A stretch of DNA of 64,000 bases. Origin: the human T2T-CHM13v2.0 reference genome, Homo sapiens. The stretch lies in the NCBI RefSeq assembly GCF_009914755.1, contig NC_060936.1, one strand, 5' to 3'. Under the pieces are notes generated by a model. The model saw nothing but the letters and a program-made list of their open reading frames with translations. It was not told the origin of the DNA and ran no database searches. Position numbers and translations under genes: made by a program. Below are positions 15,580 through 59,220 of this stretch, piece by piece. Within the stretch, counting starts at the first letter, position 1. Every line of letters begins with the position of its first letter.

Positions 15580-18500
15580 ATCTCTGTCACGGTCCGTTCA
15601 AAGAGGGCCAAATAGGAACAGCTCCCTTCTGCAGCTCCCAGCGTGAACAAAGCAGAAGACAGGTGATTTCTGCACTTCCAACTGAGGTACCTGGTTCATC
15701 TCATTGGGACTGGTTGGACAGTGGGTACAGCCCACAGAGGGTGAGGCGAAGCAGGGCGGGGTGTTGCCTCACTCAGGAAGTGCAAGGGGTCTGGGAATTT
15801 CCCTCGTCAGGCCAAGGGAAGCCGTGACAGACTGTACATGGAAAAACAGGACATTCCCACTCAAATACTGCGTTTTTCCAAAGGTCTTAGCAAACAGCAA
15901 ACCAGGAGATTGTATCCTGCGCCTGGATCGGCAGGTCCCATGCCCACAGAACCTTGCTCGCTGCTAGTGCAGCAGTCTGAGATTGACTTGCCAGGCAGCA
16001 ACCTGGCAGCGGAAGGGGTGTCCACCATTTCTGAGGCTTGAATAGATAAACAAAGCAGCCAAGGAAGCTCGAACTGGGTGGAGCCCACCACAGCGGAGCA
16101 AGGCTTGCTGTCTCTATAGACCCCACCTCTGGGGGCAGAGCATAGCTGAAGAAAAGGCAGCAGAAACTTCTGCAGACTTAAACGTACCTGTCTGACAGCT
16201 CTGAAGGGAGCAGTGGTTCTCCCAGCATGATGTTTGAGCTCTGAGAACAGACAGACTGCCTCCTCAAGTGGGTCCCTGACCCCCGTTTAGCCTAACTGGG
16301 AGACACCTCCTAGTAGGGGCTGACTGACACCTCATACAAGCAGGAGCCCCTCTTGGACAAAGCTTCCAGAGGAAGGATCAGGCAGCAATATTTGCTGTTC
16401 TGCAATATTTGCTGTTCTGCAGCCTCCACTGGTGATACCTGGGCAAACAGGGTCTGGAAAGAACCTCCAGCAAATTCCAACAGACCTGCAGCTGAGGGAC
16501 CTGACTGTTAAAAGGAAAACTAATAAACAGAGGGGAATAGCATCAACATCAACAAAAAGGACATCCACACCAAAACCCCATCTGTAGGTCACCAACATCA
16601 AAGACCAAAGGTAGATAAAACCACAAAGATGGGGAAAAAATGGAGGAGAAAAGCTGAAAATTCTAAAAACCAGAGCGCCTCTTCTCCTCCAAAGGATGGC
16701 TACTCCTCGCCAGCAATGGAACAAAGATGGACGGAGAATGAGTTTGACAAGTTGGCCAAAGTAGGCTTCAGAAGGTCGGTAATAACAAACTTCTCCAAGC
16801 TAAAGGAGGATGTTCTATCCCATCACAAGGAAGCTAAAAACCTTGAAAAAACATTAGATGAATGGCTAACTAAAATAAACAGTGTAGAGAAGACCACAAA
16901 TGACCTGATGGAGCTGAAAACCATGGCACGAGAACTATGTGATGTATGCACAAGCTTCAACAGCCAATTCGATCAAGTGGAAGAAAGGGTATCAGTGATT
17001 GAAGATCAAATTAATGAAATAAAGTGAGAAGAGAAGTTTAGAGGAAAAACAGGAAAAAGAAATGAACAAAGCCTCCAAGAAATATGGGACTATGTGAAGA
17101 GACCAAATCTACGTTTGACTGGTGTACGTGAAAGTGATGGGGAAAATGAAACAAAGTTAGAAAACACTCTTCAGGATATTGTTCAGGAGAACTTCCACAA
17201 CCTAGCATGGCAGGCCAACACTCAAATTTAGGAAATACAGAGAACACCACAAAGATAGTCTTCAAGAAGAGCAACTCCAAGACACATAATTGTCAGATTC
17301 ACCAAAGTTGAAATGAAGGCAAAAATGTTAAGGGCAGCCAGAGAGAAAGGTCGGGTTACCCACAAAGGGAAGCCCATCAGACTAACAGCAGATCTCTCAG
17401 CAGAAACTCTACAAGCCAGAAGAGAGTGGGGGCCAACATTCAACATTCTGAAAGAAAATAATTTTCAACCCAGAATTTCATATCCAGCGAAACTAAGCTT
17501 CATAAGTGAAGGAGAAATAAAATCCTTTACAGACAAGCAAATGCTGAGAGATTTTGTCACCACCAGGCCTGCCATACAAGAGCTCCTGAAGGAAGCACTA
17601 AACATGGAAAGGAACAACCAGTACCAGCCACTGCAAAAACATGCCAAATTGTAAAGACCATCGATGCTGTGAAGAAACTACATCAATTAACGAGCAAAAT
17701 AACCAACTAACATCATAATGACAGGATCAAACTCACACATAACAATATTAACCTTACATGTAAATGGGCTAAATGCCCCAATTAAAAGACACAGACTGGC
17801 AAATTGGATAAAGACTCAAGACCCGTAATTGTGCTGTATTCAAGAGACCCATCTCACGTGCAAAGACACACATAAGCTCAAAATATAGGGATGGAGGAAG
17901 ATCTACCAAGCAAATGGAAAGCAAAAAAAAGTAGGGGTTGCAATCCTAGTCTCTGATAAAACAGACTTTAAATGAACAAAGATCAAAAGAGACAAAGAAG
18001 GCCATAATGGTAAAGGGATCAATTCAACAAGAAGAGCTAACTATCCTAAATATATATGCACCCAATACAGGAGCACCCAGACTCATAAAGCAAGTCCTTA
18101 GAGACCTGCAAAGAGACTTAGACTCCCACACAATAATAATGGGAGGCTTTAACACCCATTAGACAGATCAACGAGACAGAAGGTTAACAAGGATATCCAA
18201 GACTTGAACTCATCTTTGCACCAAGTGGACCTAATAGATATCTACAGAACTCTCCACCCCAAATCAACAAAATATACATTCTTCTCAGCACTACATCGCA
18301 CTTATTCCAAAACTGACCACATAGTTGGAAGTAAAGCACTCCTCAGCAAATGTAAAAGAACGGAAATCACAACAAACTGTCTCTCAGACCACAGTGCAAT
18401 CAAATTAGAACTCAGGATTCAGAAACTCACTCAAGGCCAGGTGCGATGGCTCACGCCTGTAATCTCAGCACTTTGGGAGGCCGAGGCGGGCAGATCACGA

Positions 18501-21500
18501 GTTCAGGAGATCAAGACCATCCTGGCTAACACATTGAAACCCCGTCTCTACTAAAAATACAAAAAATTAACCAGGTGCGGTGGCGGGTGCCTGTAGTCCC
18601 AGCTACTTGGGAGGCTCAGGCAGGAGAATCGCTTGAACCTGGGAGGCAGAGTTTGCAGTGAGCCAAGATCGTGCCACTGCACTCCAGACAGGGTGATAGA
18701 GTGAGACTCCGCCTCAAAAAAAAAAAAAAAAAAAAGAAACTCACTCAAAACCGCACAACTACATGGAAACTGAGCAACCTGCTCCTGAATGACTACTGGG
18801 TAAATAACAAAATGAAGGCACAAATAAATATGTTCTTTGAAGCCAATGAGAACAAAGACACATCATACCAGAATCTCTGGGACACATTTAAACCAGTGTG
18901 TAGAGGGAAATTTATAGCACTAAATGCCCACAAGAGAAAGCAGGAAAGAGCTAGAAACAACACCCTAACATCACAATTAGAGGAACTAGAGAAGCAAAAG
19001 CAAACAAATTCAAAAGCTAGCAGAAGGTAAGAAATAACTAAGATCGGAGCAGAATTGAAGGAGATAGAGATACAAAAAAACCCTTCAAAAAATCAATGAA
19101 TCCTGGAGCTGGTTTTTTGAAAAGATCATCACAATTGATAGACCACTAGCAAGACTAATAAAGAAGAAAAGAGAGAAGAATCAAATAGATGCAATAAAAA
19201 ATGATAAAGGGGATATCACCACCAATCCCACAGAAATACAAACTACCATCAGAGAATACTATAAACACCTCTACACAGATAAACCAGAAAAATCTAGGAA
19301 AAATGGCTGAATTCCTGGGCACATACACCCTCTCAACACTAAACCAGGAAGAAGTGGAATCTCTGAATAGACCAATAACAGGCTGTGAAATTGAGGCAAT
19401 AATTAATAGCCTACCAAGTAAAAGAAGTCCAGGACCAGACAGATTCACAGACGAACTCTACCAGAGGTACAAAGAGGAGCTGGTACCATTCCTCCTGAAA
19501 CTATTCTAATTAATGGAAAAAGAGGGAATCCTCCCTAACTCATTTTATGAGGCCCTCATCATCTGATACCAAAGCCTGGTAGACACACAACAAAAAAAGA
19601 GAATTTTAGGCCAATATCCCTGATGAACATTGATGTGAAAATCCTCAATAAAATACTGGCAAATAAAATCCAGGAGCACATCAAAAGCCTTATCCACCAC
19701 AATCAAATTGACTTCATCTCTGGGATGCAAGGTTGGTTCAACATACGCAAATCAATAAACCTAATCCATCACATAAACAGAACCAACCACAAAAACCACA
19801 TGATTATCTCAATAGATGCAGAAAAGGCCTTCGACAAAATTCAACAGCGCTTCAGGCTAAAAACTCTCCATCAACTGGGTATTGATGGAACGTTTCTCAA
19901 AATAACAAGAGCTATTTATGACAAACCCACAGCCAATATCATACCAAATGGGCACAAACTGGAAGCATTCCCTTTGAAAACTGGCACAAGACAGGGATGC
20001 CCGCTCTTACCACTCCTATTCAACACAGTGTTGGAAGTTCTGGCCAGGGCAATCAGGCAAGAGAAAGAAATAAAGTGTATTCAATTAGGAAAAGACAAAG
20101 TCAAACTGTCCCTATTTGCAGATGACATGATTGTATATTTAGAAAACCCCTTCATCTTAGCCCAAAATCTCCTTAAGCTGATAAGCAACTTCAGCAAAGT
20201 ATCAGGATACAAAATCAATGTGCAAAAATCACAACCATTCCTATAAACCAATAACAGACAGACAAACAGAGAGCCAAATCATGAGTGAACTCCCATTCAC
20301 AATTGCTACAAAGAGAATAAAATACCTAGGAATCCAACTTACAAGGGATGTGAAGGACCTCTTCAAGGAGAACTACAAACTACTGCTCAACGAAATAAAA
20401 GAGGACACAAACAAATGGACTAACATTCCATGCTCATGGATAGGAAGAATTGATATTGTGTAAATGGCCATACTGCCCAAGGTAATGTATAGATTCAATG
20501 CCATCCTCATCAAGCTACCAATGACTTTCTTCACAGAATTGGAAAAAAAACTACTTTAAAGTTCATATGGAACCAAAAAAGAGCCCACATTGCCAAGACA
20601 ATCTTAAGCAAAAAGAACAAAGCTGGAGGCATCATGCTACCTGACTTCAAACTATGCTACAAGGCTACAGTAATCAAAACAGCATGGTACTGGTACCAAA
20701 ACAGATATATGGACCAATGGAACAGAACAGAGGCCTCAGAATTAACACTACACATCTACAACCATCTGATCTTTGACAAACCTGACAAAAGCAAGAAATG
20801 GGGAAAGGATTCACTATTTAATAAATGGTGCTGGGAAAACTGACTAGCCATGTGTAGAAAGCTGAAACTGGATCCCTTCTTGACACCTTATACAAAAATT
20901 AATTCAAGATGGATTAAAGACCTAAGTGTTAGACCTGAAACCATAAAAACCCTAGAAGAAAGCCTAGGTAATACCATTCAGGACATAGGCATGGGCAAGG
21001 ACTTCATGACTAAAACACCAAAAGCAATGGCAACAAAAGCCAAAATTGACAAATGGGATCTAATTAAACTAAAGAGCTTCAGCACAGCAAAAGAAACTAC
21101 CATCAGAGTGAACAGGCAACCTACAGAATGGGAGAAAATCTACCCATCTGACAAAGGGCTCATATCCAGAATCTACAAAGAACTTAAATAAATTTTCAAG
21201 AAAAAAACAAACAACCCCAGCAAAGAGTGGGCAAAGGATATGAACAGACACTTCTCAAAAAAGACATTTATGGAGCCAACAGACACATGGAAAAAATGCT
21301 CATTATCACTGGTCATCAGAGAAATGCAAATCAAAACCACAATGAGATACCATCTCACTCCAGTTAGAATGGCGGTCATTTAAAAAGTCAGGAAACAACA
21401 GAGGCTGGAGAGGATGTGGAGAAATAGGAATGCTTTTACACTCTTGGTGGGAGTGTAAATTAGTTCAACCATTGTGGAAGACAGTGTGGCAATTCCTCAA

Positions 21501-59000: not shown

Positions 59001-59220
59001 ATGAGAACACTTGGACACAGGGTGGGGAACATCACACAGCATGACCTGTAGTAGGGTGGGGGACTGGGGGAGGGACAGCATTAGGAGAAATACCTAATAT
59101 AAATGATGAGTTAATGGGTGCAGCAAACCAACATGGTGCATGTATACCTATGTAACAAATCTGCACGTTGTGCACATGTACCCTAGAACTTAAAGTATAT
59201 AAAAATAAATAAATAAATAT
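53067..59220 (+). mobile_element. Full-length L1PA6-like LINE-1, inactive (ORF2 start codon is ATT; multiple stops and frameshifts)
   Basis: ccaagatggccgaataggaacagctcc start, ORF1 from 54091, RT LFADD, 3'UTR and tail. TSD aagagccaa/aagtgccaa. Confidence 0.93.

What the first reader, a model, noticed from the sequence alone, without database searches (positions are those of the whole stretch)
15580..59220. Two separately inserted L1PA6 copies 37 kb apart share the same disabling mutations
Seen in both copies: endonuclease codon 14 is CAT (His) instead of Asn (17757-17759 and 55215-55217), and the same 4-bp AGAC duplication frameshifts ORF2 after KINVQKSQ (about 20254-20263 and 57407-57416). 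Further apparently private variants recur along the whole length (tacatgg/cattccc and aagaacctcc in the 5'UTR, ggatggc and aaaacattag in ORF1, aagactcaag, aaagtatcagg, caaccattc, tttgaaggg). Known: Asn14 is required for L1 EN activity and L1 retrotransposes mainly in cis, so a source with these lesions should not copy itself. Yet the flanks are unrelated, and copy 2 has its own TSD. Inference: ectopic gene conversion between neighbours across the SLC38A1 promoter, or trans-mobilised siblings of one defective source.
Basis: partly seen in the sequence, partly recalled or inferred. Interest (0 to 1): 0.8.

Follow-up and report, generated by a model that had tools for sequence, protein, structure and literature searches.

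The report
Neighbouring L1 copies patched by gene conversion
Two old, dead L1 retrotransposons flanking the SLC38A1 promoter share their disabling mutations most likely because stretches of one were pasted into the other by ancient gene conversion, as a mosaic involving a third nearby L1 suggests.

Summary
His replaces Asn14, and an AGAC duplication shifts the ORF2 frame after KINVQKSQ. Each lesion also occurs elsewhere in the genome: CAT in 17 other copies, the duplication in 3. None of those carries the neighbouring pair-specific variants. Two multi-variant haplotypes are found only in these two copies genome-wide. So the relationship is real and private.

The sharing does not run the whole length. 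About 20 pair-specific variants lie in copy-2 coordinates 53318-55333 and 57354-59053. None lies in the 2 kb between. In that hole copy 1 shares a rare haplotype with a third full-length L1 about 50 kb upstream, outside the window. Copy 1 is therefore a mosaic of its two neighbours.

The two copies are only 89.4% identical, no closer than unrelated copies of the same type. The event is therefore nearly as old as the insertions.

Best reading: ancient non-allelic gene conversion among three neighbouring L1s (about 0.65). Lesions that arose in one resident copy were pasted into the other, so no dead L1 needs to have copied itself. Trans-mobilised siblings plus a later patch remain possible (about 0.2). 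This is a known kind of event, of moderate interest.

The parts
15600..22064 (+). Copy 1: full-length L1, a mosaic. Its flanks resemble copy 2. Its middle resembles a third full-length L1 that lies outside the window (locus L073, G000:C12:46149533-46155682, minus strand, about 50 kb upstream of copy 1; own target-site duplication AAATACCTGAG).
   Evidence: Sequence read. blastn against copy 2 gives 88.1% and 90.4% identity. Mosaic shown. L073 was found and fetched. It is 88% identical to both copies, and its duplication was read.
18435..18735 (+). Alu inserted into ORF2 of copy 1, flanked by the duplicated target AGAAACTCACTCAA.
   Evidence: Read directly. The break in the alignment to copy 2 falls at L1 positions 2811-2823.
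53080..59219 (+). Copy 2: full-length L1 inserted into an older L1.
   Evidence: Sequence read. The two halves of the older L1 overlap by about 15 bp.
17757..17759 (+). ORF2 codon 14 is CAT (His) in copy 1.
   Evidence: Translation MTGSNSHITILTLHVNG.
55215..55217 (+). ORF2 codon 14 is CAT (His) in copy 2. The ORF2 start codon is ATT here.
   Evidence: Translation ITGSNSHITILTLHVNG.
20254..20257 (+). 4-bp duplication (ACAGACAGAC) that shifts the ORF2 frame in copy 1.
57407..57410 (+). The same 4-bp duplication in copy 2.
   Evidence: Five copies in the genome carry it.
17256..17258 (+). ORF1 codon reads TAG (stop) in copy 1. The matching codon in copy 2 (54715-54717) reads TGG. Both share a third-position G where 15 of 17 other copies have TAC.
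58557..58559 (+). First Cys of the ORF2 Cys-rich motif (CWRGC) reads GAC in copy 2 and GGC in copy 1 (21403-21405). Both share the first-position G.
   Evidence: 13 other copies of 2,267 matches carry the same G.
53318..55333 (+). 5' block of pair-specific variants, in copy-2 coordinates (copy 1: 15838-17875). Sites: 53318, 53334, 53413, 53464, 53902-3, 53921-4, 54157, 54311, 54603, 54642, 54717, 55215, 55273, 55333.
55334..57353 (+). Middle 2 kb with no pair-specific shared variant (copy 1: 17876-20200).
   Evidence: The gap test gives p=0.0165.
18823..19666 (+). Block of copy 1 that shares rare variants with the third L1 (L073). In copy-2 coordinates these lie at 55977-56819.
   Evidence: A 48-mer at 19026-19073 is exact only here and in L073 genome-wide. 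The last three variants (56763, 56789-90) are common alleles.
57354..59053 (+). 3' block of pair-specific variants, in copy-2 coordinates (copy 1: 20201-21898). Sites: 57354, 57388, 57407-10, 57639, 58557, 58900, 59053.
52833..53079 (+). Upstream half of the older L1 that copy 2 split. The downstream half begins at 59220.
   Evidence: the halves align to L1 positions 1597-1809 and 1864-2034 at about 67% identity.

Best explanation
Three full-length L1 elements of one type inserted independently within about 100 kb of the SLC38A1 locus. They are L073 on the minus strand, copy 1, and copy 2.

One of them decayed where it sat. It picked up an ORF1 stop, N14H, the AGAC frameshift, a Cys-to-Gly change and other neutral changes.

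Soon afterwards, on the order of 25-30 million years ago, non-allelic gene conversion copied about 2 kb of its 5' part and about 1.7 kb of its 3' part into the neighbour 31 kb away. A separate conversion exchanged about 0.8 kb of the middle between copy 1 and L073.

Copy 1 is most simply the recipient in both cases, because the two kinds of block do not overlap. On that reading the lesions arose in copy 2. The direction is inferred, not shown.

No retrotransposition of a dead element is needed. Crossovers between the two direct repeats would delete the SLC38A1 promoter, so only non-crossover products would be expected to survive (inference).
For: 1. The relationship is real and private.
- Two multi-variant haplotypes are exclusive to the two copies genome-wide.
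- None of the 17 other N14H copies carries 55273C, and none of the 3 other AGAC copies carries 57354A or 57388C.

2. The sharing is patchy.
- There are 15 copy1-copy2 events in 53902-55333 and 57354-58900, and none in the 2,021 bp between.
- 12 consecutive copy1-L073 events fall in that hole. By permutation, the longest run gives p=0.0008, the number of runs p=0.018 and the gap p=0.0165.

3. The copy1-L073 link has genome-wide support. A 48-mer with 4 variants is exact only in those two elements (3 matches at up to 2 mismatches). In set B they share 13 exclusive columns, the top of all pairs.

4. A baseline is available. Copy 2 and L073 share only 5 such sites.

5. All three loci have unrelated flanks. 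L073 and copy 2 have their own target-site duplications. Segmental duplication is therefore out.

6. The shared ORF changes look like neutral decay: 3 synonymous, 10 nonsynonymous (one a stop) and 1 frameshift (three of them by my own reading of the frame). That fits decay in a resident copy.

7. Copy 1 has more private changes than copy 2 in the middle (91 against 57 at L1 positions 2830-4270) but not in the 3' block (48 against 58). This is expected if the middle is unconverted older sequence.

8. Gene conversion between nearby repeats is established for Alu and rises with proximity (passages read in PMC6598467 and PMC8230782).
Against: - No outgroup genome was available, so no pre-conversion state has been seen and the direction is inferred.
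- The blocks are long (at least 1.4-2.0 kb and 1.5-1.7 kb), and the partners lie 31 and 50 kb apart. The Alu work as cited reports the effect mainly within about 10 kb.
- In set B the pair's count of exclusive shared columns is 4. That is not exceptional: 14 of 171 pairs reach 4 or more.
- An ML tree of the 3' 2 kb does not unite the two copies.
- Three of the copy1-L073 sites (56763, 56789-90) are common alleles, with 524 matches. The copy1-L073 sites in the 3' part are CpG-type and recurrent.
- Two copy1-L073 sites (54356, 54909) lie inside the 5' copy1-copy2 block.
- A 17-bp tandem-repeat difference between copies 1 and 2, near 53863, also lies inside that block.
- The mosaic tests were designed after the pattern had been seen.
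- Three full-length L1s of one type within 100 kb is itself an unexplained coincidence.
Confidence: 0.65

Rival explanations
1. Trans-mobilised siblings, or parent and daughter. A dead L1 that already carried the stop, N14H, the frameshift and the Cys change was copied by the proteins of another L1. Its copy landed 31 kb away. Later a short conversion from L073 overwrote the middle of copy 1.
For: - The shared lesions and about 20 shared rare variants are private to the two copies.
- Copy 2 has a poly(A)-like tail and its own target-site duplication.
- The split is about as old as the insertions: the shared branch is about 0.4% against about 5% private change in each copy.
- Rare trans-complementation of defective L1 RNA is documented (passages read in PMC5860796).
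Against: - It needs a rare trans event plus a landing within 31 kb. By my estimate that is about 80 kb out of 3.1 Gb per event, and I know of no local reinsertion bias for L1.
- It still needs a conversion with L073.
- The L073-like block (55977-56819) does not fill the hole. The 1.17 kb either side of it also lack pair-specific variants, which is unlikely at the density seen in the flanks. My estimate is P of about 0.003 to 0.2, depending on how many variants arose after the element died.
- No third copy or source carrying the set was found in this genome. The one chr1 copy with 53318A and 53334T has 2 of the 10 pair variants examined.
Confidence: 0.2
2. Hybrid. The two copies are ordinary cis-made siblings of a rare but active sub-lineage, which accounts for the harmless shared variants. 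The disabling lesions arose later in one copy and were spread to the other by short conversion tracts.
For: - One chr1 copy shares 53318A and 53334T, which hints at a small sub-lineage.
- The non-disabling ORF changes (6 nonsynonymous, 3 synonymous) do not by themselves exclude weak constraint.
Against: - It needs both the 31-kb landing coincidence and at least three or four separate short tracts, for the stop, N14H, the frameshift and the Cys change.
- The hole in the middle is not explained without a further event.
Confidence: 0.1
3. Chance or subfamily structure. The shared variants are diagnostic of a dispersed L1 sub-lineage or arose in parallel, and the two copies have no special relationship.
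For: - Each lesion recurs elsewhere: N14H in 17 other copies, AGAC in 3, the Cys-to-Gly G in 13.
- Several listed variants are common alleles.
- The tree does not join the two copies.
Against: - Single rare variants have background frequencies of about 0.6-0.8%.
- The combinations are found only in these two copies in 3.1 Gb.
- None of the other carriers of either lesion has the adjacent variants.
Confidence: 0.03

Closest known systems
Non-allelic (interlocus) gene conversion between dispersed retrotransposons, as described for neighbouring Alu elements (Aleshin and Zhi 2010, as cited in PMC6598467 and PMC8230782)
   Same: The elements were inserted independently and have unrelated flanks. 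Shared non-diagnostic variants occur in blocks. Proximity on one chromosome is involved. Old inactive copies can act as donors, the 'life after death' noted in PMC8230782.
   Different: The elements here are 6-kb L1s, 31 and 50 kb apart. The blocks are 0.8-2 kb long. Three elements are involved, and one partner is inverted. The event is about as old as the insertions, so it leaves no excess of overall identity.
Gene conversion of pre-existing L1 copies by other L1s in human and mouse
   Same: One L1 serves as the template to rewrite part of another L1 at the DNA level.
   Different: Those reports concern young L1s or induced breaks. This would be an ancient event between old, dead neighbours that carried disabling lesions across.
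Trans-complementation of defective L1 RNA, against the usual cis preference (Wei et al. 2001, cited as reference 50 in PMC5860796; SpIREs in PMC5860796)
   Same: It would also produce separate insertions that share disabling lesions.
   Different: It predicts identity by descent along the whole copied length and random placement in the genome. Here the sharing has a 2-kb hole filled by a different neighbour's haplotype, and the partners are neighbours.

Membership tests
LINE-1 (primate L1PA-type, full length) | 5'UTR, ORF1, ORF2 with endonuclease, reverse transcriptase and a Cys-rich motif, 3'UTR and an A-rich tail, about 6 kb in all | tested here: met
   ORF2 N-terminus, KINVQKSQ and the WRGCGEIG motif were read by translation. 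Both copies align over 6.1 kb to other full-length copies.
LINE-1 (primate L1PA-type, full length) | Target-site duplication at each insertion | tested here: inconclusive
   Copy 2 has a degenerate overlap of about 15 bp in the split older L1. L073 has a clear one, AAATACCTGAG. For copy 1 only a weak 14-bp match, 22 bp away from the 5' end, was found.
L1PA6 subfamily (Dfam/RepeatMasker) | Match to the subfamily's diagnostic positions | not testable with these tools
   No Dfam or RepeatMasker library was available. Both copies share a 5'UTR type with L067, L068 and L072, which lacks a 14-bp segment present in L066, L069 and L070. Both carry the same alleles at nearly all group-diagnostic columns.
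Non-allelic gene conversion tract | Partners are independent loci with unrelated flanks | tested here: met
   blastn of 4-kb flanks found only two non-collinear repeat hits.
Non-allelic gene conversion tract | Segment-wise incongruence: shared derived variants occur in blocks, and different partners are nearest in different segments | tested here: met
   The order of events is AAAABAAABAAA, then 12 B, then AABABBBAA. The longest-run test gives p=0.0008. The two copies are mutually nearest in the 5'UTR and 3' segments but rank 6-19 of 29 in the middle.
Non-allelic gene conversion tract | Shared variants are exclusive to the partners, not subfamily alleles | tested here: met
   Genome-wide searches. 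There are exceptions: 56763 and 56789-90 are common alleles, and single sites recur at 0.6-0.8%.
Non-allelic gene conversion tract | An orthologous locus in an outgroup shows the pre-conversion state | not testable with these tools
   Only this human assembly could be searched.
Trans-mobilised copies of one defective L1 | Disabling lesions shared by descent | tested here: met
   N14H, the frameshift, the G that gives TAG/TGG in ORF1, and the G at the Cys codon are shared.
Trans-mobilised copies of one defective L1 | Identity by descent along the whole copied length | tested here: not met
   There are no pair-specific variants in 55334-57353. Copy 1 carries L073's rare haplotype there.
Trans-mobilised copies of one defective L1 | A source element or further dispersed members carrying the same set | tested here: not met
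   No other carrier of the combined haplotypes was found in this genome. The source may have been lost, so this is weak evidence.

The most novel reading that the evidence does not exclude
A thoroughly dead L1, carrying an ORF1 stop, a catalytic endonuclease change, an ORF2 frameshift and a lost Cys, was copied in trans and its copy landed only 31 kb away. That would point to a local reinsertion bias of L1 ribonucleoprotein, or to a small non-autonomous L1 lineage. The middle of copy 1 would have been patched later from a third neighbour.
Probability: 0.15. Interest if true: 0.65.

Novelty: new member of a known kind. Interest (0 to 1): 0.35.

Why it matters
This removes an apparent paradox. 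Shared disabling mutations in separately inserted L1s need not mean that a dead element copied itself.

It is also a clean, datable, three-partner example showing that conversion can act between L1s tens of kilobases apart and across a gene promoter.

Such events blur subfamily assignment, age estimates from divergence, and source-offspring inference for L1s.

If conversion between neighbours is common, studies that read shared private variants as evidence of a common source element would need a control for distance.

Tried and rejected
- Nearest-neighbour search with the whole of copy 2. Only 40 of 43,528 candidates were scored, and copy 1 was not among them. It cannot rank relatives. It did show that two unrelated copies score higher than copy 1.
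- Other AGAC-duplication copies as lineage members. The chrX copy is 5'-truncated, the chr2 copy is only 82% identical, and the chr8 copy is full length. None shares the adjacent variants. I conclude the duplication arose by recurrent slippage.
- The 12 copies with 57388C as a sub-lineage. They fall into different types and lack the other variants. Apparent sharing by L087 and L090 came from misaligned, only partly L1 loci.
- Copy 1's middle belonging to a different subfamily. Painting with group-diagnostic columns shows both copies to be the same type throughout.
- Recent conversion. No window shows copy 1 and copy 2, or copy 1 and L073, clearly less diverged than controls.
- Segmental duplication. 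The flanks are unrelated.
A plain 46-mer was used instead.
Only its 5' 1.3 kb was read.
- The exclusive-column null is inflated by loci with non-L1 flanks. It was redone on clean loci only, keeping 17 of 28 per set.

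
Full report
WHAT IS THERE

The window holds two full-length L1 elements on the + strand. Copy 1 lies at about 15600-22064, with an Alu inserted at about 18435-18735. Copy 2 lies at 53080-59219.

By the supplied annotation, copy 1 sits in an SLC38A1 intron and copy 2 sits 14.5 kb upstream of the promoter.

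blastn gives 88.1% identity over the 5' half and 90.4% over the 3' half.

- ORF2 codon 14 is CAT in both copies.
- The same 4-bp duplication after KINVQKSQ sends both into the same wrong frame.

Two further shared lesions turned up:
- In ORF1, a third-position G turns a Tyr codon (TAC in 15 of 17 other copies) into TAG in copy 1 and TGG in copy 2.
- In ORF2, a first-position G destroys the first Cys of the Cys-rich motif, giving GGC in copy 1 and GAC in copy 2.

IS THE SHARING MORE THAN CHANCE?

Taken singly, each lesion recurs in the genome:
- The CAT form of a 29-mer is exact in 19 places out of 2,390 matches within one mismatch.
- The duplication occurs in 5 copies.
- The Cys-to-Gly G occurs in 15 of 2,267 matches.

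Single rare transversions therefore sit at about 0.6-0.8% in this family.

The combinations, however, are private:
- None of the 17 other CAT copies has 55273C, 58 bp away.
- None of the three other duplication copies has 57354A or 57388C, 20-50 bp away.
- A 35-mer in the 5'UTR with five variant positions matches only the two window copies at up to two mismatches.
- A 46-mer with two variants is exact only in the two copies.

A chr1 copy shares the 'tacatgg/cattccc' pair of variants. It has 2 of the 10 pair variants examined in the 1.2 kb I could read.

Results pointing the other way:
- Overall identity of the pair (0.894) equals that to unrelated copies of the same type (0.896-0.900).
- Two unrelated copies out-score copy 1 as matches to copy 2.
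- An ML tree of the 3' 2 kb does not join the two copies.
- In one of two background sets, the pair's count of exclusive columns (4) is reached by 14 of 171 pairs. In the other set it is the top pair, with 10 against a mean of 1.7.

These results mean the shared branch is short: about 0.4%, against about 5% of private change in each copy. The event is almost as old as the insertions.

THE MOSAIC

The pair-specific variants lie at 53318-55333 and 57354-59053 in copy-2 coordinates. None lies in the 2,021 bp between, even at a threshold of 15% frequency among 28 other copies.

One of the 12 copies carrying 57388C alone lies on the same chromosome, 40 kb before the window. It proved to be a third full-length L1 on the minus strand, at G000:C12:46149533-46155682, here called locus L073. 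It is 88% identical to both copies.

When L073 is added to the alignments, copy 1 and L073 become the top pair for exclusive shared columns in set B. They share 13, against 3 for copy 1 with copy 2 and 2 for copy 2 with L073. Those columns fall in the hole, at 55977-56819.

A 48-mer carrying four of these variants is exact only in copy 1 and L073 in the whole genome. A single further match, at two mismatches, lies on chr6.

Not all of these sites hold up:
- 56763 and 56789-90 are common alleles, with 524 matches.
- The copy1-L073 sites in the 3' part are CpG-type and recurrent.
- The sites from 55977 to 56733 are absent or nearly absent in about 63 other copies.

With 15 copy1-copy2 events and 18 copy1-L073 events placed in order along the element:
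- the longest copy1-L073 run is 12 (permutation p=0.0008);
- there are 11 runs (p=0.018);
- the gap in copy1-copy2 events gives p=0.0165.

These tests were designed after the pattern had been seen. Copy 2 and L073 share only 5 such sites, which serves as a local baseline.

INDEPENDENT LOCI

The 4-kb flanks of the three elements show no collinear similarity.

L073 has a clean target-site duplication. Copy 2 splits an older L1 whose halves overlap by about 15 bp. No duplication could be found for copy 1.

NATURE OF THE SHARED CHANGES

Of the pair-specific changes inside the ORFs:
- 3 are synonymous;
- 10 are nonsynonymous, one of them a stop;
- 1 is a frameshift. Three of these I assigned by reading the frame myself.

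That is the make-up of unconstrained decay. The common ancestor of the shared blocks was already a dead copy.

MOST LIKELY HISTORY

A whole-length copy made from one RNA predicts shared variants along the whole element. A strict tree cannot hold both copy1-copy2 and copy1-L073 exclusive variants.

The blockwise switch of partner, with both partners being the nearest L1s of this type on the chromosome, is the signature of non-allelic gene conversion.

Because the two kinds of block do not overlap, copy 1 is most simply the recipient of both. Its middle also carries more private change than copy 2's (91 against 57), while the 3' block does not (48 against 58). This fits an unconverted, older remnant. 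The direction remains an inference.

On this reading, the lesions arose once in a resident copy and were pasted into the neighbour, so cis preference is not violated. The passages I read in PMC5860796 describe trans-complementation as rare.

Conversion between nearby Alus, falling off with distance, is established according to the passages I read in PMC6598467 and PMC8230782. Conversion among L1s I recall from earlier papers not read here.

RIVALS

Trans-mobilised siblings plus a later patch from L073 remain possible, at about 0.2.
- This reading needs a rare trans event, a landing within 31 kb, and a conversion anyway.
- It leaves 1.17 kb beside the L073-like block without pair-specific variants.

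A hybrid gets about 0.1. In it, cis-made siblings of a rare active sub-lineage later exchanged the lesions by short tracts.

Pure chance or subfamily structure is excluded by the genome-wide searches.

LIMITS
- Only one human assembly could be searched.
- The background was about 60 copies, picked by pattern matches.
- The subfamily name could not be checked.
- Dates rest on a recalled neutral rate.

VERDICT

This is a well-documented new instance of a known process, of moderate interest.

Noticed in passing
window 18421-18748; loci L024-L026 (G000:C1, about 12.4-12.8 Mb): The same L1 ORF2 site, AAGAAACTCACTCA(A), was hit twice independently. In copy 1 it received an Alu. In three segmentally duplicated chr1 L1 copies it received a rearranged 3' L1 fragment. 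Both have the same target-site duplication, which suggests a preferred endonuclease target inside L1 itself.
   Followed up: partly
outside the window: G000:C12:46149533-46155682 (locus L073): A third full-length L1 of the same type lies on the minus strand inside SLC38A1. That makes three full-length copies of one type within about 100 kb, an unexplained local clustering.
   Followed up: yes
window 16386-16420 against 53863-53880: A 17-bp tandem repeat in the 5'UTR (GCAATATTTGCTGTTCT) is present twice in copy 1 and in L068, L069, L071, L072 and L091. It is present once in copy 2, L067 and L073. This is a recurrent or polymorphic indel that differs between the two copies inside their shared 5' block.
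   Followed up: no
locus L091 (G000:C1:175651300-175652600): A chr1 L1 shares the two 5'UTR variants 53318A and 53334T with the pair but none of the other eight examined. It may be an early relative of one partner's source lineage. The rest of the element could not be fetched.
   Followed up: partly
window 53902-53903 and 53921-53924: Two of the pair-specific changes are clustered multi-base events: CCCAGG to CCTGGG, which equals a local inversion, and GAGTGGA to GAAAGAA. Among the single pair-specific changes, transversions outnumber transitions by about 11 to 6. This may be partly an ascertainment effect.
   Followed up: no
loci L053/L054, L029-L031, L080/L081: Several sampled L1 copies are near-identical duplicates of one another (segmental duplications). 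They inflate pairwise sharing statistics unless thinned.
   Followed up: partly
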